Positions 16,699-36,340 are shown, numbered from the stretch's first letter. The stretch is 64,000 nt of DNA from Bacillota bacterium (GCA_023398815.1 JAEWRW010000020.1:66474-130473), one strand, 5' to 3'. Notes: generated by a model not told the origin, from the sequence alone. A program made the numbers and translations.

Positions 16699-16782
16699 TG
16701 GTGCGATCGACCGGACTTGAACCGGTACGGGAATCCCACACGCCCCTCAAACGTGCGCGTCTGCCAGTTCCGCCACGATCGC
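16699..16782 (-). tRNA. tRNA-Leu (anticodon GAG), CCA encoded
   Basis: The reverse complement GCGATCGTGGCGGAACTGGCAGACGCGCACGTTTGAGGGGCGTGTGGGATTCCCGTACCGGTTCAAGTCCGGTCGATCGCACCA folds as a class II tRNA: 7-bp acceptor, Leu-type D arm, anticodon loop TTGAGGG, long variable arm and a GTTCAAGTC T-loop. Confidence 0.9.
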
Positions 16783-18378: not shown

Positions 18379-18407
18379 TTGCGCTGGTAACTTTCATCGT
18401 TTATAAT
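18379..18407 (+). promoter_or_regulatory. SigA-type promoter TTGCGC-17-TATAAT, apparent native ppdK promoter now separated from ppdK by the island
   Basis: ggTTGCGCtggtaactttcatcgttTATAATacg. The last T of the -10 is the first base of the attL repeat. The same repeat, then a 43-nt leader and a GAGGAGG RBS, precede ppdK at 33610-33712. Confidence 0.65.
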
Positions 18408-18466
18408 ACGTAGTTGCGTGTAATACTTCTTTTGTGTGCGCTGGAAGGCCCTGGCAGGGGCAGCGC
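18407..18466 (+). repeat. attL: 60-bp direct repeat
   Basis: TACGTAGTTGCGTGTAATACTTCTTTTGTGTGCGCTGGAAGGCCCTGGCAGGGGCAGCGC. It is identical to 33610-33669 except at offsets 48 and 54 (C here, T there). Confidence 0.9.
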
Positions 18467-18634: not shown

Positions 18635-19579
18635 ATGAAAACTATAAGTTCAAAGCCAATAAACCACACGATTACTAGCGCATACGAACTTTTCAAAACC
18701 GAATGCAGGATTAGAAACCTTGCATCTGCAACCATTGAACACTACAACTATTGCGTGTTACGGTTCAGCAAGTACATTGAGTGTGATACAACACCGATTT
18801 CCAGCGTGAACAGCGAAACAATTAGGGGATTTATACAGCACATGGCTAACGCTGGCTTGAAACCCAGTAGCATTAACATCAATCTTACTGGTGTTCGTGC
18901 GTTCCTCTATTGGGCCATGGAGCAGGGATTTGTTGCTGAATTTAAGATAAGGCACATCAAAGCAGATGAAACCGAACAGCCAGTTTATACAGAAGAAGAT
19001 TTATTGAAGCTGACAGAGAAGCCCAAAACAGATAAATTTGATGTTGTTCGTAACTGGTGTATTGTTTGTTTTGCCATTGCAACTGGTGTGAGGGTAAGAA
19101 CGCTTTGCAGTATCAACATTGAGGATATTTTGCTTGATGAAGAAGCTGTAATGATTCGGCAACAAAAGAACCGCAAGATAAAGAAGCTTCCACTTAGTAG
19201 TGGAATGGTTAAGATACTGAAAAACTACATCTGGACATATCTAGCAGATGAAGCAGGGGATTTCCCTTTGTTTCCTTCTAGCAGGGCAACACGCATGAGA
19301 GCGACAACAATGCAAAGCGCAATTCACAGATACAACAATTCCAGAGGTGTTGAAATAACTGCAATGCATGGTTTTCGCAGGGCATATGCAAAAATGTACA
19401 TCAAGAATGGTGGACGTATTGAAATGCTAAAGGAACTTATGTGTCATTCATCCATTAAGCAGACAGAGAAATACTATGATTTGTATACAGATGATTTGCG
19501 GCAAGGATATGAGGAATTGAATCCTCTGCAACAGCTTGTAGGTAAAACATCAAGGACAATCAAAACACGCAATAAATAG
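18635..19579 (+). CDS. int: tyrosine recombinase / phage-type integrase
   Basis: 314 aa. It has an N-terminal SAM-like core-binding domain (TIEHYNYCVLRFSKYI...TIRGFIQHM) and catalytic motifs ATGVRVRTL, HGFRRAYAKMY, MCHSSIKQTEKYY (R..HxxR..H..Y). Confidence 0.9.
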   Translation: MKTISSKPINHTITSAYELFKTECRIRNLASATIEHYNYCVLRFSKYIECDTTPISSVNSETIRGFIQHMANAGLKPSSININLTGVRAFLYWAMEQGFVAEFKIRHIKADETEQPVYTEEDLLKLTEKPKTDKFDVVRNWCIVCFAIATGVRVRTLCSINIEDILLDEEAVMIRQQKNRKIKKLPLSSGMVKILKNYIWTYLADEAGDFPLFPSSRATRMRATTMQSAIHRYNNSRGVEITAMHGFRRAYAKMYIKNGGRIEMLKELMCHSSIKQTEKYYDLYTDDLRQGYEELNPLQQLVGKTSRTIKTRNK

Positions 19580-20719: not shown

Positions 20720-20814
20720 ACTGTATGCTCCCAATTCATGGTGCTTTGATTATACACTAATCAATGGATGTATCAAAGGGTAGCTTCTTCAAATCAAGAA
20801 TTCCAACTTAATAT

Positions 20815-21208
20815 ATGAAATATATACTACAGTGGGCTTGGCCAATAAAGCTGGAATTAAAAAGCCAGCTATAACAAACCCTATAACACCTAGCCTAAAT
20901 CAATGAATGGTGATGAGAAGGCCACAGGCTAACGCATTCAGAAATGGAAGGATTTCATTGTCTGGTTGGTAAGGGAGCAGGGGCTAGATGGACTGGGAAT
21001 TGACAGATGCAGAATTGAGGTTGCCTATTATTTTCCGACAAGAGCAAGACATGATGCTGATAACTATACAATCAAGTGGATTGGTGACGGTTTAGATATT
21101 TGTGGATTATTGGTAGATGATTCATTTTCAGTTGTAAAGAGGTTATCCATTCTTGGAGAGATTGACAAAGCCAACCCCAGAACAGAGATAAAAATAGAGG
21201 GGTTATAG
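20815..21208 (+). pseudogene. degraded RusA-family Holliday-junction resolvase gene
   Basis: ORF 20966..21208 encodes the RusA C-terminal core (IEVAYYFPTRARHDADNYTIKWIGDGLDICGLLVDDSFSVV...EIKIEGL). Upstream pieces (MKYILQWAWPIKLEL.., ..ITPSLNQ, ..MNGDEKATG*RIQKWKDFIVWLV) lie in shifted frames, with an in-frame TAA at 20930-20932. Confidence 0.55.
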
Positions 21209-21230
21209 TTTGTCTATAACCCCTTCGGTG

Positions 21231-21464
21231 CTAAAATTTGAAGTCCTTTACTTTTTCATACCAGTTGTGGCCTTCAACCGTTGCCATATAATAGGCCTTT
21301 CCATCATAACCCAATTCCATAATAAGTTTGTTGTCTAGCAACAAAACTAAATTGTACTGTATGGTTGCCATATTGATACCCATAATAGTAAGCAATATCT
21401 CCTTCGTTGCATATCCGCTTTCGATAATCCTTTTCAGAGTTTCAACAAAATATGTTGGATTCAT
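21231..21464 (-). CDS. small hypothetical protein, possibly winged-helix DNA-binding
   Basis: 77 aa with a GAGGGGAG RBS. The pattern LKRIIESGYATKEILLTIMGINMATIQYNLVLLLDNKLI resembles a wHTH. Confidence 0.4.
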   Translation of the reverse strand: MNPTYFVETLKRIIESGYATKEILLTIMGINMATIQYNLVLLLDNKLIMELGYDGKAYYMATVEGHNWYEKVKDFKF

Positions 21465-21602
21465 AACATACTCCCCTCAAGTTTTTTCTTAATAGTACAA
21501 TTTTATAGGTTAATCATCAAGTGCCTGTTTTGCATAGTATTCTACGGCTGTCCAATAATGAGTTTCGCAATTCTTATACAAAATAAAATCGGAGGTAGCA
21601 TA

Positions 21603-21896
21603 ATGGAATTTTCCCCGCCACTGGACAAAGGAATTGATAAAGAAGTAATTATATTAAGACAAAACGGAATAGAAACATATGAATCATGTCAGGGTGGCAA
21701 AGGGCATTCTTCGCCTGGCCCAATAGTAAATTTCCACGGCGAAAGTGCAGAGGGTTTTCGAGCATACACAATCGCCGTGGAAAATGGTCTGCGGGTTAGT
21801 GAATTGCGAAGAACATACCATGTGGAAGATGGAGAGTTAGTAGGCCCTACTTGGGAAATGACGTTCACACACTGTTTATTTTCCCGCGTCGTTTAG
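21603..21896 (+). CDS. hypothetical protein
   Basis: Track ORF 21558..21896 trimmed to ATG 21603, which follows GGAGGT. I recognise no motif (MEFSPPLDKGIDKEVIILRQNGIETYESCQGGKGH...). Confidence 0.4.
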   Translation: MEFSPPLDKGIDKEVIILRQNGIETYESCQGGKGHSSPGPIVNFHGESAEGFRAYTIAVENGLRVSELRRTYHVEDGELVGPTWEMTFTHCLFSRVV

Positions 21897-22043
21897 TTTT
21901 GAACAATGATTACATAGAGGTCTACCACCTGTTCCTGAAGTCAAGTACTTCTTTTCAATGTTGTTTCCTTCGGTGCATGCGCTATTGTTGTGATATACCG
22001 TTTCGCCGGGTCTTTTCGAATGAAATGCGGGTACTTTGGGCAT
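21876..22043 (-). CDS. small Cys-containing protein (55 aa)
   Basis: Track ORF trimmed to ATG at comp. 22041-22043, which follows AGGAGG. MPKVPAFHSKRPGETVYHNNSACTEGNNIEKKYLTSGTGGRPLCNHCSKLNDAGK has a Y-H-x3-C...C-x2-C pattern seen in small bacterial proteins of unknown function. Its 3' end overlaps the convergent ORF 21603..21896. Confidence 0.45.
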   Translation of the reverse strand: MPKVPAFHSKRPGETVYHNNSACTEGNNIEKKYLTSGTGGRPLCNHCSKLNDAGK

Positions 22044-22295
22044 GGTTGTATCCTCCTTTCTATTAATTGCCATAATTCTACATCTTATTGATATTAAAAG
22101 CAATATAAAATATATCTACATAAAATGCTATGAATCGACATTTCACCTGTGGGTTTGGCATAAAAAATGAGGGGCGTAAACCCTTCACATTGTGGGTAAA
22201 AGATATTTAATCTATCTGCTCGATTCGGCAATATCCTCCAAAATAGAATATTTCTATTTATGGTATAATTTAGAAAAATATTTGGAGGCATAATT

Positions 22296-22673
22296 ATGGA
22301 TCGTTATGTTCCGCAGCTAAGAAAGGGAATAGATTATACAAATACATCTGAAGAACAAAGAAAAGAAGAAAGGATATATTGGGAAAAGATGCTAAGTTAT
22401 CTTGAAGATATCAAAAATAATACATCCAACTTATCAAATATAGTTAATTTGCTTGTTGAGAATAACGAGAAACAAGACGAAATTATTGATATAATAAAAG
22501 AATTGTTGAGTATTACAGCTTTAAAAGGCAATCCGGAAGAGGCAATGTCCCTTTATCAGAAAGTTATTGATAGAATCAATAAGCTGAACAATGGCGCGGA
22601 CGCATTCATGAAACTAATGAATTTTTGTACGTTTGTCGGAGGAATGCTTCATCAACTTGGAATTCTTCAATAA
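22296..22673 (+). CDS. hypothetical protein (helical, 125 aa)
   Basis: GGAGG RBS. No recognisable motif. It is followed by a 37-aa ORF (22695..22808). Confidence 0.4.
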   Translation: MDRYVPQLRKGIDYTNTSEEQRKEERIYWEKMLSYLEDIKNNTSNLSNIVNLLVENNEKQDEIIDIIKELLSITALKGNPEEAMSLYQKVIDRINKLNNGADAFMKLMNFCTFVGGMLHQLGILQ

Positions 22674-22827
22674 ACAAATGACGGGAGAAGTAAAATGAAA
22701 AAACAAGACTATGGTGCAGTTCAATCCCTTGGAGCGGTTTTCGCTGAGGAAGAAAAGCATGTACCTAGACCGGCGAGCATTCCCCTATACACTACAGTCC
22801 CTTCGTAACATACAATCATATTAAGCA

Positions 22828-22872
22828 GGAAAACCCTTAGCCCCGGCTTAGGGGCCGGGGCAGGGTTTTCCT
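22828..22872. terminator. bidirectional terminator hairpin between convergent island genes
   Basis: GGAAAACCCT..CCCCGGC-TTAG-GGGCCGGGG..AGGGTTTTCC is a long GC-rich stem flanked by A/T. Confidence 0.75.
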
Positions 22873-22953
22873 GCATTATGATTACCTTATTTTGACATGA
22901 TTGAAATACTATAATACATTGTTATTTATATATAATATTTCTAATATGTCAAA

Positions 22954-23940
22954 TTATCGGAAGAAGAAGTGTGATAGATTTGTGCATTGCTCTATATATG
23001 ATTCCTTTGCGCGATACGATGGAATGTCATCCGGCCCAAAGTATCTCTCCAGTAGTTCGATTTGTCTCTTTCTCGCATTTTGAATAAATCGTTCAACAAA
23101 CAAACTTCTCAATTCATCCAGCGTGTCAACAGATTTATCGCATAGAATATCTTGAATGTCTTGTGTTTCCGAGACTAACCATATGTCATATGCAGAGTAT
23201 ATATAATCTATTCCGAATTCCTTATAAAGGAGCGATTGCAATTTTGTTTGGAATTCGTTAGTCTTGTCTCTCCAAAAAACATCATTTTCACATCCAAGTC
23301 CCATTTCATCCAGAACTTCGTGCCTCAGTTCCTTTTCTCTTGCCACCTCCTCGTCAGTTGCTTCCCTCAGTTTTGTCTTGTCAGAATGGCAAAATGCCAT
23401 TTCTTTTACTTTGTAATCAACAAGTCCTTGATTCTTAAGTGAAACTAAAACAGAATTAAGTGCTGATGCCAAACATGTTCTGGTTTGTTGATAAAACTCT
23501 TTAGTTATTCGTCTGTCTAGTTTAACTTGTAATTGTGACTCAAGTTCACTTATCAAATACCCATAATTTCGCGAGTCCATTTTTGTTATTTCTAGTGTTC
23601 TATAAACATGGAATAGTGACTGGTTACTAATAGGCACTGGATTATTCCATAAGTATGATAACAGTAAGGTTTCGAGGGCTTCCCCATATATCCTGTTGTT
23701 CATGTTCTTTTTCTTTCTTCCATCAACCCTTTCTTTGGGCTCACGATATATTTCTTCTATCCTGTAGGTTCTTCCATTTTTAGAGTAACTAAAATACCGT
23801 GCCCATTCTCGTAGTTGATAGACTTTCTTTTCTCCACCGCATATCCCTTCTCCTAAGGCTTTACAAAGTTCTTGATAGTCTTTGAATACTTTGTTTTCAT
23901 ATAAAAGATTTGTTGTAATAATTGATTGTTCTCCTTTCAA
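22954..23940 (-). CDS. hypothetical protein (328 aa)
   Basis: Long AT-rich ORF with coding-like composition. I recognise no motif. The start codon (TTG 23940) is uncertain. Confidence 0.45.
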   Translation of the reverse strand: MKGEQSIITTNLLYENKVFKDYQELCKALGEGICGGEKKVYQLREWARYFSYSKNGRTYRIEEIYREPKERVDGRKKKNMNNRIYGEALETLLLSYLWNNPVPISNQSLFHVYRTLEITKMDSRNYGYLISELESQLQVKLDRRITKEFYQQTRTCLASALNSVLVSLKNQGLVDYKVKEMAFCHSDKTKLREATDEEVAREKELRHEVLDEMGLGCENDVFWRDKTNEFQTKLQSLLYKEFGIDYIYSAYDIWLVSETQDIQDILCDKSVDTLDELRSLFVERFIQNARKRQIELLERYFGPDDIPSYRAKESYIEQCTNLSHFFFR

Positions 23941-24467: not shown

Positions 24468-25031
24468 ATGGCAAGAATCGGGTATGTAAGAGTTTCTACT
24501 AAAGAACAGAACACTGCTAGACAGGAAGTGTTGCTATCAGATTTAGGCGTAGATAAAGTTTTTGTTGACAAGGAAAGTGGAAAGGGCACAGACAGACCAG
24601 AGCTCAAGAAGATGCTGGACTACATACGAGAAGGCGACAGCATAATTGTAGAATCAATAAGCCGCTTTGCAAGAAATACACGAGACCTTCTCGACCTAAT
24701 TAGTAAGCTAGAAGGGAAAGGGGTTAAGTTTGTCAGCAAGAAGGAAGCTATTGATACCGATACCCCTACCGGGAAGTTCATGCTCACCGTGTTTGGTGCA
24801 GTAGCACAACTGGAACGTGATTATCTGTTGCAAAGACAGGCAGAAGGAATCGCAATAGCCAAAGAACAGAAGAAGTACAAGGGCCGGAGGAAGATTGAGA
24901 ATCCTAAGTTTGAAAAGGTGTATGGAGAGTGGAAAACAGGACTCATTACTGCGGTTAGGGCTATGGAGCTACTGGACATGAAGCGAAACACTTTTTATAG
25001 AAGGGTTGCTGAGTTTGAGAAGGAGGCGTAA
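24468..25031 (+). CDS. serine recombinase (resolvase/invertase family)
   Basis: MARIGYVRVSTKEQNTARQ...DKESGKGTDRPELKKMLDYIREGDSIIVESISRFARNTRDLL...GV.F.S..E.IDT.TP.GK....VFGA.AQLERD... followed by a C-terminal HTH (RNTFYRRV). The catalytic Ser lies in the YVRVST context. Confidence 0.92.
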   Translation: MARIGYVRVSTKEQNTARQEVLLSDLGVDKVFVDKESGKGTDRPELKKMLDYIREGDSIIVESISRFARNTRDLLDLISKLEGKGVKFVSKKEAIDTDTPTGKFMLTVFGAVAQLERDYLLQRQAEGIAIAKEQKKYKGRRKIENPKFEKVYGEWKTGLITAVRAMELLDMKRNTFYRRVAEFEKEA

Positions 25032-25194: not shown

Positions 25195-25223
25195 TTGACA
25201 ATTGTAAGCACAAGTGATAAATT
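25195..25223 (+). promoter_or_regulatory. candidate promoter TTGACA-17-TAAATT of the candidate defence operon
   Basis: cacaTTGACAattgtaagcacaagtgaTAAATTatg lies about 50 nt upstream of the HTH gene start. Confidence 0.55.
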
Positions 25224-25249
25224 ATGAACAATTATGAGTAATTGTGAGC
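25220..25249 (+). repeat. three tandem 10-bp repeats AATTRTGARY overlapping and following the -10 (candidate operator)
   Basis: AATTATGAAC AATTATGAGT AATTGTGAGC, followed by AATGAATTAT. Confidence 0.5.
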
Positions 25250-25273
25250 AATGAATTATAGAAGGTGATGTGC

Positions 25274-25473
25274 ATGAGTAAAGAGTATATTACTCTCGCT
25301 GAATTAGCAAAGATGTTGAAGATAAGCAGAGCAACTATTGATCGCTGGAGAAAAGAAGGTATGCCATCCATAAGATTGGTAACGGAGTTAGGTTCATTGA
25401 AATCGATGTCCACAATTGGATTGCGGAACATAAGTCTGATCAAAAGTCAAAGCAAGAGGCCACCAGAGGGTAA
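25274..25473 (+). pseudogene. excisionase/MerR-type HTH (HTH_17-like) DNA-binding protein with a 1-nt frameshift at an A-run
   Basis: MSKEYITLAELAKMLKISRATIDRWRKEGMPSI is in frame 1. The canonical continuation KIGNGVRFIEIDVHNWIAEHKSDQKSKQEATRG* is in the next frame. One extra A at 25372-25373 (AA to AAA) restores a 66-aa protein ending at 25473. The track ORF 25265..25486 is the unrepaired reading. Confidence 0.65.
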
Positions 25474-25478
25474 TCGAT

Positions 25479-25931
25479 ATGATTAAGCTTTTGCAATTGA
25501 AAATACGCAGATTTTATAGAAGCACCTTCCAACGAAAAGGCTTCTGGTTGTCTTTTTTTCTTTTGGTATTTAGTTTCGTTGTATTGATAATGATTCTGTT
25601 TCCCGTAATTTATGACAGAGTGCCGCTCTATTCATACTTCGTTCGTGAATGGAAACTACCAGTTGCGTATGAACTTGATGGCCAAGTAGAGATAGTAGAT
25701 GCTGCTGGCAATGTTGTTAATACAAATGTTGAAGTTTTTATCGGGGGATATTCCACATCTGTTGATTCCAATGGACAGTTTAAATTAGTATTCTCAGCGC
25801 CATTAACGACTGAGTTATTTATCGTAATTAGGTATACAACTCCTTCAGGGCAAAACATTGTAAAAACTGAGCTATTAGTTATTAAAGAGGGAGTTCACAA
25901 AATTGAACAGGAGTTCAAGTATAATGCCTAG
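25479..25931 (+). CDS. single-pass membrane protein with CarboxypepD_reg-like beta-sandwich domain (operon gene 1)
   Basis: It has a basic N-terminus, the TM segment GFWLSFFLLVFSFVVLIMILFPVIY, then LDGQVEIVDAAGNVVNTNVEVFIGGYSTSVDSNGQFKLVF (pattern G.V.D..G.....V...G....TDSNG.F). The start is 5 nt after the repaired HTH stop. Confidence 0.6.
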   Translation: MIKLLQLKIRRFYRSTFQRKGFWLSFFLLVFSFVVLIMILFPVIYDRVPLYSYFVREWKLPVAYELDGQVEIVDAAGNVVNTNVEVFIGGYSTSVDSNGQFKLVFSAPLTTELFIVIRYTTPSGQNIVKTELLVIKEGVHKIEQEFKYNA

Positions 25932-27243
25932 TACTTATGAACTTGCAGTTATTGGTATGGGCCCTGCTGGAATCGGAGTAGCCGCAGCTCTTCAAAATTC
26001 ACCTATTTTCTTAAATACAATTTGTTTTGAGCGCGGCGAAGAGGTGAACGCTAAGAAGTGCATTGCTATTTATAAGTATCCTTGCTGCAATTCGAATACT
26101 TGTCATATCATTTCGGGTATTGGTGGGGCTTCGAGCTTAAGTAATGGTAAGCTAAGTCTCTTTCCTGCAGGTAGTGGACTTAAACGCTTTTTCGCAACTG
26201 AGCAGGAATTGGAAAGTTTGATGGCAGATGTAATCCAATCGCTTGAAATTGATGCCGGACTCAAGAAAGTGGAGATTGACAAAAAAGTAATATCTGATGC
26301 GAAAAAATTCTATTTAGCCAACGATATCACGTACAAGTATTACGATGTTTACGAGTTCGATGGAGATAAGTATCGCAACTATCTTGCATCGACAATCCAA
26401 TCTTTGACTAGTCATGGACTTCAGCTTCATGCAAAAGCAGACGTTATATCGATAGAACGAGATGATTCGAACTTATGGTATACTATCACCGTTGCTGAAA
26501 ATGGAGTAATAAATTTTTATAAGGCAAAAAGAATAGTATTAGCGGTGGGTTCAAGTCAAATTAATAATTACCTTGTTTCCGCGTTATCGGGCACAAAAGC
26601 AATCAACTATGAAATTGGGTTAAGAGTAGAATTGAAATCTGAGTGCTTCGGTGATCACCTGGACGCTCATGGTGACTTGAAGCTTATTAGCAAATCAGGA
26701 AGGACGTACTGCGTAACAAGGGGTGGAGCAATCGTATCATATAGAACTGATGGATATTCCTTGTTGGAGGGTTATGTTGATAAAAATCAATTAACTGATT
26801 ATTCAAATCTTGCAGTATTGGTTAAGGCAGATGATGAGGAAGAGCTTAACAAATTCTTTGGGAATTATTATGCCTTTTTCGGAGGTGTGCCCGTAAGGCA
26901 AAAGTATATCGATTATCAATTGGGTAACGTAAGCACCGGCTTCGTCCATACAACTTTGGCTAAATCACAAATAGGTGATATCAACAAAATGTTCCCTAAC
27001 TCTATAAATGAAGCGCTACGCGAATTTATAGATCATGTGATTGTCAAAACCATGCACATTGAAAAAGAAGCAATAACTATTGTCGCACCAGAGCTAAAAA
27101 CGGTTGTAAATTTCGAATTAACAGATCATTTCGAGATAACATCGCATTTATATGTCGTAGGAGCGGCCACCGGGAAATTTCGCGGTATTCTACAATCAAT
27201 ATGTTCTGGTGTACAATGTGGCAAATATATTTTAGGGGAGTGA
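25924..27243 (+). CDS. FAD/NAD(P)-binding oxidoreductase, COG2509-like (operon gene 2)
   Basis: I chose ATG 25924, which overlaps the gene 1 stop by 8 nt. It has an N-terminal Rossmann motif ELAVIGMGPAGIGVAAAL, then GIGGASSLSNGKLSL, and a C-terminal LYVVGAATGKFRGILQSICSGVQCGKYIL, as in uncharacterised FAD-dependent dehydrogenases. Confidence 0.65.
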   Translation: MPSTYELAVIGMGPAGIGVAAALQNSPIFLNTICFERGEEVNAKKCIAIYKYPCCNSNTCHIISGIGGASSLSNGKLSLFPAGSGLKRFFATEQELESLMADVIQSLEIDAGLKKVEIDKKVISDAKKFYLANDITYKYYDVYEFDGDKYRNYLASTIQSLTSHGLQLHAKADVISIERDDSNLWYTITVAENGVINFYKAKRIVLAVGSSQINNYLVSALSGTKAINYEIGLRVELKSECFGDHLDAHGDLKLISKSGRTYCVTRGGAIVSYRTDGYSLLEGYVDKNQLTDYSNLAVLVKADDEEELNKFFGNYYAFFGGVPVRQKYIDYQLGNVSTGFVHTTLAKSQIGDINKMFPNSINEALREFIDHVIVKTMHIEKEAITIVAPELKTVVNFELTDHFEITSHLYVVGAATGKFRGILQSICSGVQCGKYILGE

Positions 27244-27247
27244 GCTC

Positions 27248-28888
27248 ATGTATATTTGGGATGCCCTATATGGAAAGATTGAGTTCAATTCATTAGTTTA
27301 TAGATGCATGATGTCCCCTGAAGTTCAACGACTCAGGGAGGTTCGTTTGTGCAATATTAACTCACTGTGCATTACGGGTAGTTCAAACACTAATCGATTT
27401 GAGCATTCAATTGGCACTGCATACCTAGCATCTGTAAACATAGAGTCATCTGTTGAGAACCATCTAAAGCTCGACAAAAAAACTAAAGAGATATTAGTCA
27501 TAGCTGCATTGCTCCATGATGTAGCAAACGGCCCTTATGGGCATTCATATGAATATATCATGGAAAAACAAGGCTTTATTCCTGAAAAGGGTTTAGGTGA
27601 TGTTCTGTCGTTTGAAGGTACGGGCGTTAATAAAGTTGCCTATAAATTTTCCCCAATTTTTTTTGGTAAACTGAAAACGCTAAATAGCATACTTGATTCC
27701 GTACAAAAAGCTGAAGTTACAAGTATTATCTCTGGCGACCATACCTTAAGCAAATTAATTAGTTCGGAAATAGACCTTGACAATATTGATAATGTTTTTA
27801 GAATGGCTTATCATATGGGCTTGAGTTTTACCAAGGAAGCGCCTTTGCGCCTTGCACAAAATATGTATATTGAAGATGGAAATATACGTTTCAAAAGAGA
27901 GGTAGAGCCGTTTTTAAATGAATGGTTTGAGTTAAGAAAAAGGGTTTATAAGTTCTTGCTATTAAATCCTCAAGAATTTGCCGGTAAGTATATGCTAACT
28001 GAGGCAATGGACATTCTATTTGAGTGTGCTTCTGAAAACAAGGCGCGTGACAAAGATAATAAGCCTGTTTCCATTGAGTGGTACTATACTGACTATGAAC
28101 TAATGACCGAATTGAACGGCCTCACTGAAGTATGGCTTCCAAGAAAAACACTTCTATTTGATCGTATTGACCGTAATTTAATCAGCGATATTTTGCGATG
28201 CACTAATGAGATTGCCCAAAGAACAAACCTACAAAACTACATGCAGTCGTTGCTATTGCAAACATCAATAAAGGAGAAGGGGAAAAGTGGCAATTCTAAC
28301 AAATTGCAACTTAACGACAACTTCAGAATATTTATTTCCGCAAATAATGTTATTTCAGTTACAGACCGCAACATGGAATTCGAGATAAATGGTGATAAGC
28401 TATATAAAGTAGTTTATACCAAATACAATCCATCCCAAATTGTATCTCGATTAATGACTGGTGATCTTTATGACTGTCTGTTGATATTGGATACTAATGA
28501 TACAGGAAAGTACCCTCGGTTTCTGGATTATTCTTTGCGTATAAATATTGAAGCCGAACTTGAAGCAAAAATTAGAGCGGAAAAAGAATTTGCTCGTTTG
28601 AGTATTGGTGTACACCCAATTCTTGATAAAAATAAAACAAAGCGGCAATTGTCAATCGCTTTTGATGATACTGACAGGTTGTCAATCATTGGAGATTGCT
28701 CATCATGTAAACTCCTCATAGGTATTTTCATTAAGAATGAGCCCTATGGACTTAGTAGTGGAAAAATTCCCTTGGCAAAGCATCGCGAAAAGCTTGAAAA
28801 AATTGTATTTGACTACTTCGTCTCATTTTTCGAAAACGGCGCGAAGATAGTGCCATTATATGAGGAGGCGAATATTTATGGATATTGA
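27248..28888 (+). CDS. SAMHD1-like HD-domain (d)NTP phosphohydrolase with long uncharacterised C-terminal region (operon gene 3)
   Basis: WDALYGKIEF...SPEVQRLREVRL...NRFEHSIGTAYLA...IAALLHDVANGPYGHSYE...EIDLDNIDNVFRMAYHMGL gives the H..HD..D constellation and overall pattern of the dGTPase/SAMHD1 family. Residues from about 230 to 546 have no motif I recognise. Confidence 0.75.
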   Translation: MYIWDALYGKIEFNSLVYRCMMSPEVQRLREVRLCNINSLCITGSSNTNRFEHSIGTAYLASVNIESSVENHLKLDKKTKEILVIAALLHDVANGPYGHSYEYIMEKQGFIPEKGLGDVLSFEGTGVNKVAYKFSPIFFGKLKTLNSILDSVQKAEVTSIISGDHTLSKLISSEIDLDNIDNVFRMAYHMGLSFTKEAPLRLAQNMYIEDGNIRFKREVEPFLNEWFELRKRVYKFLLLNPQEFAGKYMLTEAMDILFECASENKARDKDNKPVSIEWYYTDYELMTELNGLTEVWLPRKTLLFDRIDRNLISDILRCTNEIAQRTNLQNYMQSLLLQTSIKEKGKSGNSNKLQLNDNFRIFISANNVISVTDRNMEFEINGDKLYKVVYTKYNPSQIVSRLMTGDLYDCLLILDTNDTGKYPRFLDYSLRINIEAELEAKIRAEKEFARLSIGVHPILDKNKTKRQLSIAFDDTDRLSIIGDCSSCKLLIGIFIKNEPYGLSSGKIPLAKHREKLEKIVFDYFVSFFENGAKIVPLYEEANIYGY

Positions 28889-30080
28889 TAACATACGAAA
28901 GAATATTAATAGTATTAATTGGAACTTTGACTTTACTATTACTTATGACTCTGGAATGATTCGTCCATTCAATTGTCGTAAATATTACTCATATCCAGCT
29001 ACCTTCATTCCGGAAATTCCATACACATTGATTGAGATTCTTTCGAAGAAAGGAGATGTGGTTCTTGACCCATTTGGTGGGATAGGAACAACATTTATGC
29101 AAGCCTTATCGTTGGAGAGAACCCCTCTGTCTTTTGATATTAATCCCATCGCTACAAATGTTTGCGAAACCCTGTATCGTTTGTTTGACCCAAATTTTGG
29201 GCACGAGGATGTGAAAAAGCAGCTCTTGGATTATTGTAGAGACTATGATAAAAATTATGATTATAGAAAGAAATTGGCTGGATACAAAATTGAACTAGGT
29301 GGATGGTTTGAAGATAACACATTTAATGAGCTTGCATATCTGTTATATAGATATCAGAACACACAAGTCTATAACCTAAGAATTGTACTTGGGCTTATTT
29401 TGCCAAGTATCTTGACCACGTTATCCAGCCAAAACAAAGGTTGGGCTTATATAGCGGATAATGTTAAACCGAAGTTTGATGAACTCCGACAAAAGAGTGT
29501 TTTAGATCATTACAAATCTACATTAAAAACATTACTAGGAGATGTGGAAAGTCAGTTAGGAAGCTTTCCGAAATCTTATCCTGATTTCTATCAACAATTA
29601 GCAGAGACCCCGAGGGTAATAGCAGATTCTATTGTGAATAGTAACCTTCGGGATAGCTCTGTCGATTTAGTCATTACATCTCCTCCATATCCGAGAATGA
29701 TAGATTATGTCAAATCGCAACGACTATCGTTTTATTTTTTTGACCTTAACTTCCACGAATATGTAGAAAGCGAAACGGGAGCAAGGTATCGTAGAAGTCG
29801 CCAGGATGCGTTGACGGAGTATGAGAAACAGATTTGTTTCGTAAACAAAAAAACCCTTGATTTACTAAAAATTGGTGGCTTTTTTTGTTTGGTGCTTCCG
29901 GATTACAATGTCGATGACAACAGAAAATCAGTGATAGAGAAGATTGTTAAATGGTATTCTGAGAATGGACTTACTGAGGTTGCTAAGATTGGTAGGTATA
30001 TTCCAAGCCATAAAAGAACACTTAGTATTCAGTGGGCAAGCTTGGTAAATGAACACATTTATATTTTCCAGAAAGGGTGA
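28878..30080 (+). CDS. amino (N4-C or N6-A) DNA methyltransferase, motif order I...IV (operon gene 4)
   Basis: I chose ATG 28878 (GAGGAGG RBS), which overlaps the HD gene stop by 11 nt. The AdoMet motif is VVLDPFGGIGTTFMQAL and the catalytic motif is VDLVITSPPYPRMIDY. No restriction endonuclease-like ORF is adjacent. Confidence 0.75.
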   Translation: MDIDNIRKNINSINWNFDFTITYDSGMIRPFNCRKYYSYPATFIPEIPYTLIEILSKKGDVVLDPFGGIGTTFMQALSLERTPLSFDINPIATNVCETLYRLFDPNFGHEDVKKQLLDYCRDYDKNYDYRKKLAGYKIELGGWFEDNTFNELAYLLYRYQNTQVYNLRIVLGLILPSILTTLSSQNKGWAYIADNVKPKFDELRQKSVLDHYKSTLKTLLGDVESQLGSFPKSYPDFYQQLAETPRVIADSIVNSNLRDSSVDLVITSPPYPRMIDYVKSQRLSFYFFDLNFHEYVESETGARYRRSRQDALTEYEKQICFVNKKTLDLLKIGGFFCLVLPDYNVDDNRKSVIEKIVKWYSENGLTEVAKIGRYIPSHKRTLSIQWASLVNEHIYIFQKG

Positions 30081-30085
30081 GCATT

Positions 30086-31273
30086 ATGCTTTATGAAGGA
30101 ATAATAATAACAGGTACTTCGTGTGTTGGTAAGAGCACTATAGCTAAGAAGTTGTGCGAACCTGATGTATATGGAAACTTTAGCTCCTTTGAAGTTGTGC
30201 CCGCAGTAACGACACGACCTCCAAGAAACGATGACTTTAACTATGGGTACATAGATGAAGCTGGATTTAAGAACTTGCTTAAACAGAATAGACTGTTAAC
30301 CAGCACGAAATATCGAGATAGACTATATGGGATCAAACGAGATAGGTATGAAGCTGTTTTGGGTAGAAATAAGTACCCCATATTAATCCTTGCTCCCGAT
30401 TCTTCAATGTCGTTGATGAACGATTTTAATGGTAGATTTATGTGCTTCTTCATTGATGCTGAGGATGAAGATCTTATAGAGCGCTTGCAAATTCGAGACA
30501 ACCGAGAAATATCTGATAATGAGAGGGCAAACTTAAAGAAACAGTTTGCGATAGACAGAAATAATGCGTATAAGGCAAACTATGTTCTTAAGAACAATGA
30601 TATTGATGTTTCGGTTTCTCTTACAAGACTGTTATGGGAACAAAGAAATCATGGGGGAGGCTTGTCATACAATATAATTAAATCAATGATAGAATGTGGA
30701 ATGCTTCTTGAGAATGCGGATACAATAGGAGTCAAAGGCGCGTCGTACGACTTGCTATTAGGCGATGAATACTATTACGCAGGGAAGATAAAGAAGCTTT
30801 CCGATACAGATCCTTTCCTAACAATTGAGCCTTATGATTACGCTATCGTTTCATGTAAAGAACGTGCCTGTATGCCACGCGATGTAATTGCAAGATTTGG
30901 TCTCACGGTGGGGCTATTCTGTCAAGGTATAATTTTATCAAACGGTCCCCAAATTGATCCCGGCTTTCAAGGAACATTGTTTTGTTTGCTTTTTAACACA
31001 TCCAATCGCGCAGTACATTTGAAGAGAGGAAAGCACTATGCATCCATCGAATTCAACAAATTAATAGAACCTGCGGAACCATATGTAGGCCAGTATCAGG
31101 GAACAGAGAAAATTATAGAATATATCCCTGCGAACGCTCTGCAGGGAGCGATTAACGAACTTAAGAAGGATATTGAAACGCTTAAAGATGAAAGCAAACT
31201 CATGCAGAATATTTACCTAGTGGTAGTAGGCTTAATGTTTGCAATAATATCCATTCTGCTGGTTCTTAGGTAG
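30086..31273 (+). CDS. fusion protein: guanylate-kinase-like P-loop domain + dCTP deaminase/dUTPase-fold domain + coiled coil + C-terminal TM helix (operon gene 5)
   Basis: The P-loop is IIITGTSCVGKSTIAKKL, with the GK-like AVTTRPPRNDDFNYGYIDEAGF...YGI. The Dcd-like region is GASYDLLLGDEYY...IEPYDYAIVSCKERACMPRDVIARFGLTVGLFCQGIILSNGPQIDPGFQGTLFCLLFNTSNRAVHLKRGKHYASIEF. The C-terminal TM is IYLVVVGLMFAIISILLVL. GTG 30077 overlaps the MTase stop; ATG 30086 has a GGGTGA RBS. Confidence 0.75.
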   Translation: MLYEGIIITGTSCVGKSTIAKKLCEPDVYGNFSSFEVVPAVTTRPPRNDDFNYGYIDEAGFKNLLKQNRLLTSTKYRDRLYGIKRDRYEAVLGRNKYPILILAPDSSMSLMNDFNGRFMCFFIDAEDEDLIERLQIRDNREISDNERANLKKQFAIDRNNAYKANYVLKNNDIDVSVSLTRLLWEQRNHGGGLSYNIIKSMIECGMLLENADTIGVKGASYDLLLGDEYYYAGKIKKLSDTDPFLTIEPYDYAIVSCKERACMPRDVIARFGLTVGLFCQGIILSNGPQIDPGFQGTLFCLLFNTSNRAVHLKRGKHYASIEFNKLIEPAEPYVGQYQGTEKIIEYIPANALQGAINELKKDIETLKDESKLMQNIYLVVVGLMFAIISILLVLR

Positions 31274-31627: not shown

Positions 31628-31813
31628 CTAGCTTTGTGTTGTGTCATCCTGTTTTTCATCAATATGACTTAATGCATATTGAATACACATAACGACCAAT
31701 TTATTCAGCGATATTCCCTTTTCATTGCAGATAGTTTCCATCTGTGAAACTAGTTGCTTTGAAATACGGAATGTTCTATTAACATATTCTTCTTTTTCAA
31801 TTCTGAATGACAT
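31628..31813 (-). CDS. ribbon-helix-helix (CopG/Arc-like) DNA-binding protein
   Basis: Trimmed to ATG (GGGAGGG RBS). MSFRIEKEEYVNRTFRISKQLVSQMETICNEKGISLNKLVVMCIQYAL shows a beta-strand followed by two helices, the pattern of RHH regulators. Confidence 0.55.
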   Translation of the reverse strand: MSFRIEKEEYVNRTFRISKQLVSQMETICNEKGISLNKLVVMCIQYALSHIDEKQDDTTQS

Positions 31814-31972
31814 AATAAACCCTCCCACACAATTTTAGTTGATGATTTCACGCATTTATACACATATAAAACAGCATAAAATACACTTGTTTATTGAGTT
31901 CATCTGTTGTATTATTTTGTTCACTTAATACGGATGTTTTCTACTAAAAACGAATATGGAGGACAAGACAAA

Positions 31973-33034
31973 ATGGAGAAAATACGCTCCTCGACAACCA
32001 TCAGGATGAATTCGAAATCCATATTAGTTCTAACTCTAGTATGCTCTGCCGTAGTTGTAGCGATTGTTGTAAGCCTTGTGCTACTTGTTCCCATGGTGAA
32101 GTATACTAAAGCAATGGCTCTATTTAATAATAAGGACTATGGTAATTCATCAAAATCTTTTTCGGAGATGGGTGACTATAGAGACTCAAAACAGATGGTT
32201 TTGGAATCTGATTACAATTATGCAAATCAATTGGTTGGGGAAAAGGAGTATGAAAGGGCAATCTCCATATTGTCACACATAGAAAATTACAAGGACAGTC
32301 AGGAAATTAAGAGGGAAGCAAACTACCTGTTCGCAAGGTTGAAAATTGATACGAAGGATTATAAGGCTGCAATTAGCATCCTCAAAAATCTTAACCAGTA
32401 CAAAGATAGCAGCGGCTTGTTGACAAGTGCTACTTATCATCAAGCAGTTCAATACTATGAAAGCGGAGATTTCAGCACATCTAAGCAATTATTCCAAAGC
32501 GTCAAAGATTACGAGGATACAGCAGACTACCTTTCTGACATAGAAATAATTGGAGCTATTCAAGGTACATGGGAAAAAAACTATACAGTAAGCAATGCAC
32601 CGCGTGACATCTTGATATTCCACGGCTGGATTGTAACGGATGTGAATTATTCCCTTGGCCTTACAGTTAGGGAATCGAAACTTTCGATTGAAGATGGGCT
32701 TGTTGCGGCTGGAACAAAGGATGAATATATGATGGAAACTTATCAGCAGCAAGGCGATAATAGCTTATGGGAACGGAATCATGTAAATGAGGAGGATAAA
32801 TCACAAGATATATTTATTGAGTACAGGAAAAGGAATAGCTCTACAGTTGTGCCTTCTCCCCCAGCCATCGGTATGACCAGAGATGAAGTTATAAATTCCC
32901 TGTGGGGGAAACCTAACCAAATTAATAAAACAACAACAGCGAATGGAGTGAGTGAACAATGGGTTTATTCTGATGATGTGGGCGGAGGATATGTATATTT
33001 TGAGGATGGTATTGTAGAGTCCATCCAAGAATAG
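31973..33034 (+). CDS. membrane-anchored protein with repeated helical (TPR-like, GDY.DS) motifs
   Basis: Trimmed to ATG 31973 (GGAGGA RBS). The TM is ILVLTLVCSAVVVAIVVSLVLLV. Repeats include F.EMGDYRDSKQ, IENYKDSQE, LNQYKDSSG and VKDYEDTADY. Confidence 0.55.
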   Translation: MEKIRSSTTIRMNSKSILVLTLVCSAVVVAIVVSLVLLVPMVKYTKAMALFNNKDYGNSSKSFSEMGDYRDSKQMVLESDYNYANQLVGEKEYERAISILSHIENYKDSQEIKREANYLFARLKIDTKDYKAAISILKNLNQYKDSSGLLTSATYHQAVQYYESGDFSTSKQLFQSVKDYEDTADYLSDIEIIGAIQGTWEKNYTVSNAPRDILIFHGWIVTDVNYSLGLTVRESKLSIEDGLVAAGTKDEYMMETYQQQGDNSLWERNHVNEEDKSQDIFIEYRKRNSSTVVPSPPAIGMTRDEVINSLWGKPNQINKTTTANGVSEQWVYSDDVGGGYVYFEDGIVESIQE

Positions 33035-33556: not shown

Positions 33557-33609
33557 TTCAAAAACACACGGCTTTAAGCCAGAAATTACGCGATTTTCTA
33601 CGTATCCGC

Positions 33610-33669
33610 TACGTAGTTGCGTGTAATACTTCTTTTGTGTGCGCTGGAAGGCCCTGGTAGGGGTAGCGC
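33610..33669 (+). repeat. attR: 60-bp direct repeat
   Basis: TACGTAGTTGCGTGTAATACTTCTTTTGTGTGCGCTGGAAGGCCCTGGTAGGGGTAGCGC; 58/60 identical to 18407-18466. Confidence 0.9.

Positions 33670-33712: not shown

Positions 33713-36340
<2,628 letters not shown>

What the first reader, a model, noticed from the sequence alone, without database searches (positions are those of the whole stretch)
25195..31273. Composite, translationally coupled operon combining two nucleotide-depletion effectors with FAD, methyltransferase and membrane partners: candidate undescribed defence system
Six co-directional genes follow a TTGACA-17-TAAATT promoter. They are separated by gaps of 5 nt or less, or they overlap (25924/25931, 28878/28888, 30077-30086/30080).

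Gene order:
- HTH protein (frameshifted)
- TM + beta-sandwich protein
- COG2509-like FAD/NAD(P) protein
- SAMHD1-like HD phosphohydrolase
- amino-DNA methyltransferase (FGG...SPPY)
- guanylate-kinase-like::dCTP-deaminase-like::TM fusion

Kinase-dCTP-deaminase fusions and SAMHD1-like dGTPases are each published as stand-alone anti-phage nucleotide-depletion defences (Tal et al., Nat Microbiol 2022). Here both are locked into one operon with three further conserved-looking partners. Two of the proteins are membrane anchored, and the operon rides on an integrative island. I know of no described system with this architecture.

An alternative reading is a DNA or nucleotide modification module: kinase + deaminase + HD dNTPase + MTase + flavoprotein recalls phage thymidine or cytosine hypermodification pathways.
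Basis: partly seen in the sequence, partly recalled or inferred. Interest (0 to 1): 0.92.

Follow-up and report, generated by a model that had tools for sequence, protein, structure and literature searches.

The report
Uncharacterised six-gene nucleotide-enzyme defence-island cassette

Summary
Six co-directional, overlapping or nearly abutting genes (25274-31273) follow a conserved promoter and operator on a 15.2-kb low-GC integrative island.

The four-enzyme core keeps one order down to 25-45% identity in 47 species genomes. It comprises a COG2509-type flavoprotein, a SAMHD1-like HD hydrolase, an SPPY methyltransferase and a tail-anchored guanylate-kinase::dCTP-deaminase-fold protein. The hosts span at least eight bacterial phyla and several archaeal lineages. 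Flanks vary and include integrases, IS elements, relaxases, type I R-M, Septu, Hachiman-like, Lamassu/Thoeris-like, SoFic, NACHT and toxin-antitoxin genes. The cassette is essentially absent from phage and plasmid collections.

No PADLOC, NCBIfam or literature entry describes it.

The "two depletion effectors" reading is weakened. The deaminase-fold domain lacks the catalytic Glu and the Ser/Arg motif in every member. The HD protein replaces three SAMHD1 substrate-contact residues. A three-gene variant lacks both HD and methyltransferase.

Best reading (confidence 0.45): a new, HTH-autoregulated, nucleotide-centred defence cassette with a methylation arm. The biochemistry is inferred, not shown.

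The parts
18392..18466 (.). attL-like direct repeat bounding the 15.2-kb low-GC island
   Evidence: 75-nt direct repeat, 88% identical to 33595-33669. The GC drop begins here.
18635..19579 (+). Tyrosine integrase of the island
   Evidence: Pfam Phage_integrase 2.4e-25 plus SAM-like N-terminal domains.
24468..25031 (+). Serine resolvase/invertase directly upstream of the cassette
   Evidence: Pfam Resolvase 5.1e-42. Large serine recombinases also sit directly upstream in L003 and L060.
25195..25223 (+). Promoter: TTGACA, 17 nt, TAAATT, with TG before the -10
   Evidence: The -35 TTGAC is conserved in homologous loci.
25214..25248 (+). Putative operator: four (A/G)TGA units at a 10-bp period (25215, 25225, 25235, 25245), overlapping the -10 box and the 5' UTR
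   Evidence: These are invariant columns in an alignment of 7 upstream regions that are otherwise about 50% identical.
25274..25474 (+). HTH_17 regulator, frameshifted in this genome by a 1-nt deletion near 25369. Repaired product is 66 aa.
   Evidence: Pfam HTH_17 9e-06 and PADLOC mad1 3.7e-07. Frameshift shown against L001, L003 and L011.
25479..25931 (+). 150-aa membrane protein: basic N-terminus, one TM helix (residues 26-44), small beta domain with a conserved GGY motif
   Evidence: Hydropathy 3.11. Alignment with type A and variant B homologues. An equivalent TM ORF lies directly upstream of the first enzyme gene in 15-17 of 29 loci, depending on the hydropathy cut-off. No Pfam or PADLOC hit.
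25924..27243 (+). COG2509-type flavoprotein (439 aa) with GxGxxG and four invariant Cys (C46, C54, C60, C263)
   Evidence: AF2 pLDDT 84. Best PDB match is 3NLC (VP0956), E 1e-18, TM 0.72. Motif conservation in 27 loci.
27248..28888 (+). SAMHD1-like HD phosphohydrolase (546 aa) with a divergent substrate pocket and a variable insert at residues 301-400
   Evidence: PDB SAMHD1 4.4e-12. Fold search returns SAMHD1 and EF1143. H53, H90, D91, D176, D178 and D181 are invariant in 30 sequences. Conservation profile.
28878..30080 (+). Amino-methyltransferase (400 aa) with motif I DPFxGxGTT before motif IV TSPPYP
   Evidence: Pfam N6_N4_Mtase 8.9e-16. Nearest solved relatives are N4-cytosine methyltransferases. 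Both motifs are invariant in 29 sequences, and there is a conserved block at residues 181-200 between them.
30077..31273 (+). Guanylate-kinase-like P-loop domain (residues 9-180), dCTP-deaminase/dUTPase-fold domain (about 200-347), coiled coil, and C-terminal TM anchor (379-397)
   Evidence: Pfam Guanylate_kin 1.5e-11 and DCD 9.7e-10. Alignments. Hydropathy 3.04.
33595..33669 (.). attR-like direct repeat, just upstream of ppdK (33713-36340)

Best explanation
This is a horizontally mobile, HTH-autoregulated immune cassette of a kind not yet described. It acts on (deoxy)nucleotides at the membrane.

Shown here:
- Five or six genes are inherited as one translationally coupled unit across Bacteria and Archaea.
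- Their flanks keep changing and often include defence genes.
- The catalytic or cofactor motifs of the kinase P-loop, HD metal site, methyltransferase and flavoprotein are conserved.
- The most conserved element of all is a dCTP-deaminase-fold domain that cannot be a canonical deaminase.

Inferred:
- The ancestral module is the triad of TM/beta-domain protein, tail-anchored (kinase)::DCD-fold protein and COG2509 flavoprotein. This triad exists alone as variant B. There its flavoprotein carries an extra DUF7768 domain that I suspect is nucleotide-processing.
- The DCD-fold domain keeps the conserved ID-P-G-F Asp and aromatic residue and the C-terminal YxGxYQ arm. It has lost the deaminase Glu, Ser and Arg and gained invariant Cys and Gln. 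I propose that it binds a pyrimidine deoxynucleotide as a sensor, or performs non-deaminase chemistry on it together with the flavoprotein.
- In the six-gene form, the SPPY methyltransferase marks host DNA (m4C or m6A) as self.
- The SAMHD1-like HD enzyme is the executioner. It hydrolyses a nucleotide substrate and so starves invading DNA of precursors. The kinase domain feeds dNMPs released during infection into that sink.
- The HTH protein represses the operon through the 4 x TGA operator, as C proteins do in R-M systems. In this genome the HTH is frameshifted, so the operon may be derepressed or decaying.
For: Conserved unit:
- The same gene order and sizes occur in L001-L008 and L059-L064.
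- FAD-HD-MT-GK::DCD is the usual order in the genome-contig loci that carry all four genes, down to 25-45% identity. The hosts are Bacillota, Bacteroidota, Acidobacteriota, Chloroflexota, Actinomycetota, Verrucomicrobiota, Desulfobacterota, Methanoperedens, ANME-1, Bathyarchaeia, Heimdallarchaeota and Halobacteria.

Mobility and defence context:
- In the window it sits on an att-bounded island with an integrase.
- It assembles alone as 5-10 kb contigs in 120 of 147 index blocks.
- Neighbours include type I R-M, PemK with NACHT, Phd/ParE, three SoFic genes at 4e-43, Septu PtuA 4.7e-148 with PtuB 2.7e-61, HamB/PDC-M23B 4.6e-156 and an LmuA/ThsA-like SIR2 5e-49.

Enzyme motifs are conserved in 27-30 divergent sequences.

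The DCD-fold domain is the most conserved block yet lacks the deaminase residues.

Variant B lacks HD and methyltransferase. Its flavoprotein carries DUF7768.

The operator is conserved.

The cassette is not phage-borne or plasmid-borne.

No model or paper describes it (literature searches). A 2026 review lists only stand-alone dCTP deaminase and dGTPase, and notes that SAMHD1-like bacterial proteins may remain unidentified.
Against: - No experiment and no direct functional evidence exists.
- Defence-island association is anecdotal: about 6 of 10 distinct contexts, with no statistical enrichment computed. The bulk scan of 108 flanking ORFs was heterogeneous. Some copies sit among metabolic genes (L062).
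- No protein with an obvious DNA-sensing, nuclease or ATPase role is present, so it is unclear how methylation status would be read.
- The substrate pocket of the HD protein differs from SAMHD1, so dNTPase activity is not assured.
- The methyltransferase has a conserved inter-motif block instead of a hypervariable target-recognition domain. That fits a dedicated pathway enzyme as well as a self-marking enzyme.
- The roles of the flavoprotein and of the extracytoplasmic beta domain are unexplained.
Confidence: 0.45

Rival explanations
1. The operon couples two bona fide dNTP-depletion effectors, each working as in Tal et al. 2022, with accessory partners. One is a kinase::dCTP deaminase that converts dCTP to dUTP or dUMP. 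The other is a SAMHD1-like dNTPase.
For: - Pfam and NCBIfam domain hits: DCD 9.7e-10, dCTP_deam 1.9e-15, Guanylate_kin 1.5e-11, HD 4.7e-06.
- Sequence and fold similarity to SAMHD1.
- The HD metal tetrad is invariant.
- The kinase-plus-DCD architecture recalls the published defensive enzyme (from my own knowledge, and the review).
Against: - The catalytic Glu (TLEL in 4xjc and 2qxx, ITLELFN in a viral enzyme) is Leu in all members. The GRSSxGRLG motif is replaced.
- There is no PADLOC hit for the kinase::DCD protein. The dGTPase hit is only 14 bits. NCBIfam scores are far below cut-offs: 57 against 92.8, and 21.5 against 152.
- SAMHD1 substrate-contact residues are replaced.
- These proteins were found only inside the cassette or its variants (plus a few stand-alone DCD-TM genes of unknown context, such as L048), not as the single-gene systems described.
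Confidence: 0.12
2. A host-encoded nucleotide or DNA modification pathway. Kinase, pyrimidine-nucleotide-binding dUTPase-fold protein, flavoprotein, HD phosphohydrolase and methyltransferase act in sequence. They make a modified deoxynucleotide or base, for self-DNA protection or as an antimetabolite. They are not a sense-and-kill system.
For: - All enzymatic motifs are conserved.
- The methyltransferase inter-motif region carries a conserved block, unlike the variable specificity domains of R-M enzymes.
- The invariant Cys and Gln in the DCD-fold pocket and the 4-Cys flavoprotein suggest redox or C5-type chemistry.
- COG2509-like flavoproteins occur in a few viruses, including a Campylobacter phage.
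- Variant B fuses the flavoprotein to DUF7768.
- From my own knowledge, thymidine hypermodification pathways use kinases and related enzymes.
Against: - The cassette is essentially absent from phage genomes.
- No base-exchange, glycosyltransferase or DNA-polymerase-linked component is present.
- Two components are membrane-anchored, which is odd for a soluble pathway.
- Distribution is sporadic and MGE-borne, beside defence genes.
- Variant B works without methyltransferase and HD.
Confidence: 0.2
3. Two independent systems lie side by side. One is an R-M-like pair: a methyltransferase plus an HD protein acting as a metal-dependent nuclease, controlled by a C-protein-like HTH. The other is a separate membrane triad (TM protein, DCD-TM, flavoprotein).
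For: - The triad exists alone as variant B.
- HD and methyltransferase are gained or lost together.
- HTH plus operator resembles C-protein control.
- In L006 the HD gene is split while the methyltransferase is intact. No locus was seen with an intact HD and a broken methyltransferase.
Against: - HD and methyltransferase are inserted between the flavoprotein and the DCD gene, and overlap their neighbours.
- This interleaved order recurs from Clostridia to archaea.
- No HD-methyltransferase pair without the other genes was seen among the loci examined.
- The HD protein is SAMHD1-like, not Cas3-like.
- The split genes come from long-read assemblies and may be sequencing errors.
Confidence: 0.1
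4. A selfish stabilisation or exclusion module of integrative elements, for example post-segregational killing or exclusion of competing MGEs, with no dedicated anti-phage role.
For: - It always lies on or next to mobile DNA: integrases, resolvases, relaxases, IS21.
- TA modules are frequent neighbours.
Against: - The unit has five or six genes with four enzymes, far more complex than known addiction modules.
- It is also found next to Septu, Hachiman-like, Lamassu-like and SoFic genes.
Confidence: 0.08

Closest known systems
Defensive kinase-dCTP deaminase (Tal et al., Nat Microbiol 2022; summarised in PMC13276650)
   Same: An N-terminal P-loop nucleotide-kinase domain is fused to a dCTP-deaminase/dUTPase-fold domain. 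It is found in defence islands.
   Different: - Here the catalytic Glu and the Ser/Arg motif are absent in every member.
- The protein is tail-anchored in the membrane.
- It was not seen as a single-gene kinase-deaminase system; it occurs inside the cassette, variant B or as a shorter DCD-TM gene.
- No PADLOC model matches it.
Defensive dGTPase / SAMHD1 / EF1143 dNTP triphosphohydrolases
   Same: HD fold, an invariant H...HD...D metal site, and SAMHD1-like N-terminal motifs.
   Different: - The positions that align with K, Y and D of the IDVDKFDYLARD motif are N, N and M.
- It carries a 100-residue variable insert and a distinct C-terminal half.
- It scores below the family thresholds.
- It is always paired with a methyltransferase.
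Methylation-associated multi-gene defence systems (MADS, BREX/Pgl, DISARM)
   Same: A small HTH gene leads the operon, with a weak mad1 match. A DNA amino-methyltransferase is embedded among non-nuclease partners. The unit is mobile and lies in defence islands.
   Different: None of the defining proteins is present: mad3-8, PglZ, BrxC, BrxL, DrmA or DrmB. There are no PADLOC hits. The NCBIfam MADS1 and MADS2 scores are 14.5 against a cut-off of 80, and 16.1 against 720.
COG2509 flavoproteins (PDB 3NLC, VP0956; function unknown)
   Same: Whole-chain fold (TM 0.72), GxGxxG, and a Cys-rich loop.
   Different: Only about 23% identical to the housekeeping clostridial COG2509 proteins. Here it is dedicated to a mobile cassette. 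In variant B it is fused to DUF7768.
Phage thymidine/cytosine hypermodification modules
   Same: A mix of nucleotide kinase, pyrimidine-nucleotide-binding enzyme, methyltransferase and redox enzyme.
   Different: It is not encoded by phages. It has no DNA glycosyl or aminoacyl transferases. Its components are membrane-anchored.

Membership tests
Defensive kinase-dCTP deaminase (Tal 2022) | dCTP-deaminase/dUTPase-fold domain | tested here: met
   Pfam DCD 9.7e-10. PDB 9ln0 at 3e-17.
Defensive kinase-dCTP deaminase (Tal 2022) | Deaminase catalytic Glu (TLE) and the GRSSxGR Ser/Arg motif | tested here: not met
   LFCLLFN and GLTVGLFCQG in 29 of 29 loci and in remote relatives. A canonical viral enzyme keeps both motifs.
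Defensive kinase-dCTP deaminase (Tal 2022) | Match to the curated defence model | tested here: not met
   No PADLOC family at E <= 0.1 for the window protein, for variant B or for distant members.
Defensive kinase-dCTP deaminase (Tal 2022) | dCTP depletion during infection | not testable with these tools
   Needs LC-MS of nucleotide pools.
dGTPase / SAMHD1-type dNTP triphosphohydrolase | H...HD...D metal-binding tetrad | tested here: met
   H53, H90, D91 and D176/D178 are invariant in 30 sequences.
dGTPase / SAMHD1-type dNTP triphosphohydrolase | Substrate-contact residues of the D-x-D-K-x-D-Y-x-x-R-D motif | tested here: not met
   IDLDNIDNVFRM against IDVDKFDYLARD. K becomes N and Y becomes N, both invariant in 30 sequences. 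D becomes M in the window protein; that column was not tabulated across loci. The roles of these residues are from my knowledge of human SAMHD1.
dGTPase / SAMHD1-type dNTP triphosphohydrolase | Reaches the family model thresholds | tested here: not met
   NCBIfam dGTP_triPase 21.5 bits against a cut-off of 152. PADLOC dGTPase E 0.0057.
dGTPase / SAMHD1-type dNTP triphosphohydrolase | Overall fold | tested here: inconclusive
   Foldseek top hits are all SAMHD1 or EF1143, but TM is only 0.42-0.54 on a model with pLDDT 74.
MADS | mad1 HTH and mad2 methyltransferase at equivalog level; mad3-mad8 present | tested here: not met
   The PADLOC mad1 hit (3.7e-07) covers only the HTH. NCBIfam MADS1 scores 14.5 against 80, and MADS2 16.1 against 720. 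No other mad hits in the cassette.
BREX / DISARM / Pgl | PglZ, BrxC/PglY, BrxL, or DrmA/B/C | tested here: not met
   No PADLOC hit for any non-methyltransferase protein of the cassette.
Type II R-M with C protein | Active amino-methyltransferase motifs | tested here: met
   DPFxGxGTT and TSPPYP are invariant. PADLOC MTase_II 3.5e-23.
Type II R-M with C protein | Cognate restriction endonuclease | tested here: inconclusive
   No recognisable nuclease domain. The HD protein could in principle be a nuclease, but it is SAMHD1-like.
Phage DNA hypermodification module | Encoded in phage genomes | tested here: not met
   0 full-length hits in 50,697 phage records. 1 weak locus in 2.9 million IMG/VR contigs.
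COG2509 flavoprotein | VP0956-like fold with a dinucleotide-binding GxGxxG | tested here: met
   3NLC at E 1e-18, TM 0.72. GxGxxG invariant.

The most novel reading that the evidence does not exclude
A previously unrecognised class of prokaryotic immune system, spread by HGT through Bacteria and Archaea. Its conserved heart is a membrane-tethered, catalytically rewired dUTPase/dCTP-deaminase-fold protein that works with a 4-Cys COG2509 flavoprotein and a surface-exposed beta-domain protein. This heart surveys or chemically alters the deoxynucleotide pool. In the six-gene form it controls a SAMHD1-like hydrolase and a DNA methyltransferase. That would be a new sensing and effector logic. It would also give the first function for COG2509 flavoproteins and for this DCD-fold clade (733 representative clusters at E <= 1e-10).
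Probability: 0.4. Interest if true: 0.9.

Novelty: categorically new. Interest (0 to 1): 0.8.

Why it matters
If it is a defence system, it adds a new architecture to nucleotide-based immunity. It has a bacterial SAMHD1 relative wired to DNA methylation and to a membrane module. It is present in human-gut Clostridia, soil Acidobacteriota and methane-cycling archaea alike.

It would assign roles to three orphan protein families:
- COG2509 flavoproteins;
- the non-catalytic DCD-fold/TM clade;
- DUF7768.

It would also test the suggestion, made in a 2026 review, that unidentified SAMHD1-like proteins act in bacterial defence.

Practically, the cassette is only about 6 kb, is self-contained and has its own promoter and operator, so it can be cloned and tested directly.

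Tried and rejected
1. **Already-named system.** PADLOC v2 and NCBIfam r20 were negative for all non-methyltransferase proteins, for variant B and for distant members. Ten full-text searches found nothing relevant. Two of those searches were badly chosen and uninformative.

2. **Phage or plasmid origin.** tblastn against phage and plasmid collections gave only single-domain hits. IMG/VR gave one weak locus.

3. **"Bacteriophage sp." virome contigs that match the flavoprotein**. These turned out to be bacterial chromosomal fragments carrying housekeeping COG2509 genes beside dnaX, recR and smpB. They are not phage.

4. **Campylobacter-phage COG2509 lead**. I could not follow it up because there was no tblastn hit.

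5. **Bulk scan of 108 flanking ORFs**. It shows heterogeneity and MGE and defence genes, but the tool gives no per-protein counts, so I computed no enrichment statistic.

6. **PDB sequence search of the variant B DUF7768 domain.** No hit.

7. **Source organism.** Not identified. The identical proteins lie on a 381-kb metagenome contig.

8. **Terminator downstream of 31273.** No convincing one was found.

Full report
**What is in the window**

Between 18.4 and 33.7 kb the GC content falls from about 0.6 to 0.34-0.40. The low-GC block is bounded by 75-nt direct repeats at 18392-18466 and 33595-33669. It starts with a tyrosine integrase at 18635-19579. It is inserted just upstream of a pyruvate phosphate dikinase gene. 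So this is a 15.2-kb integrative island.

- HTH, 25274-25474;
- a 150-aa membrane protein, 25479-25931;
- a 439-aa flavoprotein, 25924-27243;
- a 546-aa HD protein, 27248-28888;
- a 400-aa methyltransferase, 28878-30080;
- a 395/398-aa kinase::DCD::TM fusion, 30077 or 30086 to 31273.

The junctions are overlaps of 8, 11 and 4 nt, or gaps of 4-5 nt, exactly as reported. TTGACA-17-TAAATT lies at 25195-25223.

The HTH is frameshifted. Compared with three homologues there is a single-base deletion near 25369. The repaired frame ends at 25472-25474, four bases before the next start codon. The deletion is not in a real A-run. That is the only inaccuracy in the observation.

**Domains**

- Pfam, NCBIfam and PHROGs confirm HTH_17, HD, N6_N4_Mtase, Guanylate_kin and DCD.
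- The flavoprotein reaches no Pfam threshold. An AlphaFold model built on 45 homologues (pLDDT 84) superposes on 3NLC, the COG2509 protein VP0956, with TM 0.72.
- The HD protein resembles SAMHD1 in sequence (4.4e-12) and in fold.
- The methyltransferase has motif I before motif IV (SPPY). Its nearest solved relatives are N4-cytosine enzymes.
- Hydropathy shows one strong TM segment near the N-terminus of the 150-aa protein and one at the extreme C-terminus of the kinase::DCD protein.

**It is one conserved unit**

Homologues of the fusion protein form 652 clusters. The HD protein gives 1068 and the flavoprotein 168.

Every neighbourhood inspected for close homologues shows the same six genes with the same sizes and overlaps (67/150/440/545/400/395 aa), while the flanks differ.

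A scan of one genome per species found 47 loci. They come from Bacillota, Bacteroidota, Acidobacteriota, Chloroflexota, Actinomycetota, Verrucomicrobiota, Desulfobacterota, Spirochaetes and others. They also come from Methanoperedens, ANME-1, Bathyarchaeia, Heimdallarchaeota, Thermoplasmatales and Halobacteria. tblastn shows flavoprotein, HD, methyltransferase and kinase::DCD in that order in most of the loci that carry all four genes, down to 25-45% identity. In three loci (L029, L038, L041) the flavoprotein gene lies downstream instead, on the opposite strand in L029. A TM protein of 140-165 aa precedes them in 15-17 of 29 loci, depending on the hydropathy cut-off.

Upstream of the HTH gene, seven loci that are otherwise about 50% identical share a -35 TTGAC. 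They also share four (A/G)TGA units at a 10-bp period that overlap the -10 box. In the window these lie at 25215, 25225, 25235 and 25245. I read this as the operator of the HTH protein (inference).

**Mobility and context**

The cassette is rare: 47 of 185,579 species representatives, with a pattern-limited search. Its distribution is patchy across domains of life. Here it is far more AT-rich than its host. In gut metagenomes it usually assembles on its own as a 5-10 kb contig (120 of 147 index blocks for one variant). All of this indicates frequent horizontal transfer.

Its neighbours include:
- integrases, serine recombinases, IS21, relaxases and MobC;
- type I R-M;
- PemK and a 1541-aa NACHT protein;
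- Phd/ParE and RelB/ParE;
- three SoFic genes (4e-43);
- Septu PtuA/PtuB (4.7e-148 and 2.7e-61);
- a HamB/PDC-M23B helicase (4.6e-156);
- an LmuA/ThsA-like SIR2 protein (5e-49).

One copy lies among sugar-metabolism genes and one beside a phage sheath gene.

I could not compute a formal enrichment. Roughly 6 of 10 independent contexts carry defence or TA genes within 10 kb.

The cassette is not a phage or plasmid module. There was no full-length hit in 50,697 phage or 72,556 plasmid records, and one weak locus in 2.9 million viral contigs.

**The enzymes look active, but the two 'effectors' are not the published ones**

Across 27-30 divergent sequences:
- the P-loop (GxxxxGK[ST]) and the TTRxxR guanylate-kinase motif are kept;
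- the H...HD...D tetrad is invariant;
- DPFxGxGTT and TSPPYP are invariant;
- the flavoprotein keeps GxGxxG and four invariant cysteines (C46, C54, C60, C263), probably a metal or Fe-S site.

The dCTP-deaminase-fold domain is the most conserved stretch of the whole cassette. Yet where true dCTP deaminases have GRSSxGRLG...IDPGFxGxITLELxN, every member has (R/K)F(G/D)LTVGLFCQG...IDPGFxGxLFCLLFN. The true deaminases used for comparison were 4xjc, 2qxx and a Methanobacteriales virus enzyme. The catalytic Glu is Leu, and the Ser/Arg pair is gone. Cys282, Gln283 and Cys303 are new near-invariant residues.

The same signature extends to a wider clade of membrane-anchored DCD-fold proteins. That clade has 99 representative clusters at E <= 1e-30 and 733 at E <= 1e-10. 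Members occur with or without a P-loop domain, and none hits PADLOC.

In the HD protein, the motif that aligns with SAMHD1's IDVDKFDYLARD reads IDLDNIDNVFRM. The positions of K and Y are invariant Asn. The position of the second D is Met in the window protein; that column was not tabulated across loci. From my knowledge of human SAMHD1, these are K312, Y315 and D319, which contact the dNTP. So dNTPase activity is plausible but not assured.

The methyltransferase carries a conserved block (residues 181-200) between its catalytic motifs in bacteria and archaea alike. This argues for a fixed target and against diversifying specificity.

**A three-gene variant**

In L039, L042/L044, L047 and L049 the order is TM/beta-domain protein, then (degenerate kinase)::DCD::TM, then a longer flavoprotein of 560-570 aa. 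There is no HD and no methyltransferase. The extra C-terminal domain of that flavoprotein is Pfam DUF7768. Its conserved pattern reminds me of nucleoside 2-deoxyribosyltransferase-like Rossmann domains. That is a recollection, not a test.

These variant loci sit directly beside Septu, Hachiman-like and Lamassu/Thoeris-like genes. The triad therefore looks like the core module, with HD plus methyltransferase as an added arm.

**Interpretation**

The best-supported statement is descriptive. This is a conserved, mobile, defence-island-associated multi-enzyme cassette built around nucleotide-binding folds, and it is not described in the resources I could search.

I commit to the following mechanism at 0.45 confidence:
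- The DCD-fold::TM protein, together with the flavoprotein and the surface beta-domain protein, senses or chemically alters a pyrimidine deoxynucleotide at the membrane.
- The methyltransferase marks self DNA.
- The HD enzyme, fed by the kinase domain, drains nucleotide precursors on infection.
- The HTH protein autoregulates through the 4 x TGA operator.

The rivals are:
- a nucleotide or DNA modification pathway (0.2);
- two juxtaposed systems (0.1);
- an MGE addiction or exclusion module (0.08).

**Novelty**

None of the defining features of the defensive dCTP deaminase, dGTPase, MADS, BREX/DISARM or type II R-M families is fully met (see the membership table). NCBIfam (June 2026) and PADLOC give no name. 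A 2026 review lists only stand-alone dCTP deaminase and dGTPase, and explicitly anticipates unidentified SAMHD1-like defence proteins.

I therefore rate it as a new kind of system built from known folds. The caveat is that its function is untested.

In this particular genome the regulator is frameshifted, so the copy may be derepressed or on its way to decay. The other five genes are intact.

Noticed in passing
window 18392-18466 and 33595-33669: 75-nt direct repeats (88% identical) bound a 15.2-kb low-GC island. A tyrosine integrase lies at its left end. The island is inserted just upstream of ppdK (33713-36340). tRNA-Leu(GAG) at 16699-16782 lies 1.6 kb outside and is not the attachment site.
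   Followed up: partly
window 25214-25248: Four (A/G)TGA units at an exact 10-bp period overlap the -10 box. They are invariant in seven homologous loci. Probably the operator of the HTH regulator.
   Followed up: partly
L039, L042/L044, L047, L049 (e.g. L042:4040-7113): A three-gene variant: TM/beta-domain protein, (degenerate kinase)::DCD::TM, and a long flavoprotein with a C-terminal DUF7768 domain. It has no HD or methyltransferase. It lies directly beside Septu, Hachiman-like or SIR2/LmuA-like genes.
   Followed up: partly
window 25924-27243 (protein residues 46, 54, 60, 263): Four cysteines are invariant from Clostridia to archaea. They lie in a loop that AlphaFold leaves disordered. Housekeeping COG2509 proteins have a CxxCxxC-type cluster at the same place. 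This suggests an Fe-S or Zn site.
   Followed up: no
index statistics for P0051 and P0028: The cassette very often assembles alone as a 5-10 kb contig in gut metagenomes (120 of 147 blocks). This is expected if the same unit sits in many genomic contexts within one sample.
   Followed up: no
L059:1107-1970: A separate 287-aa DCD/dUTPase-domain gene lies 4 kb upstream of one cassette copy, on a mobilisable element with a relaxase and NikA. It has no PADLOC hit.
   Followed up: no
L057 (BK063678.1, Methanobacteriales virus) 4989-6199: This virus encodes separate guanylate kinase and canonical dCTP deaminase genes (GRSSVGRLG...ITLELFN) next to thymidylate synthase. It served as a useful positive control for the catalytic motifs.
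   Followed up: yes
L065-L068 (MT836034, MT836509, MT836377, MT835770): GenBank 'UNVERIFIED Bacteriophage sp.' virome contigs carry dnaX, recR, smpB, ABC transporters and housekeeping COG2509 genes. They look like bacterial chromosomal fragments, not phage.
   Followed up: partly
window 20129-23940 and 31628-33034: The other island genes have no informative family hit. These are a 201-aa TM protein, ORFs of 112, 125 and 328 aa, a 66-aa ORF on the minus strand, and a 375-aa TM protein whose only hit is a sub-threshold match to the TPR-type ANAPC3 family.
   Followed up: partly
L006 and L008: In two long-read assemblies the HD gene (L006), or both the HD and methyltransferase genes (L008), are split while the other genes are intact. 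No locus showed an intact HD with a broken methyltransferase. These could be decay or sequencing errors.
   Followed up: no
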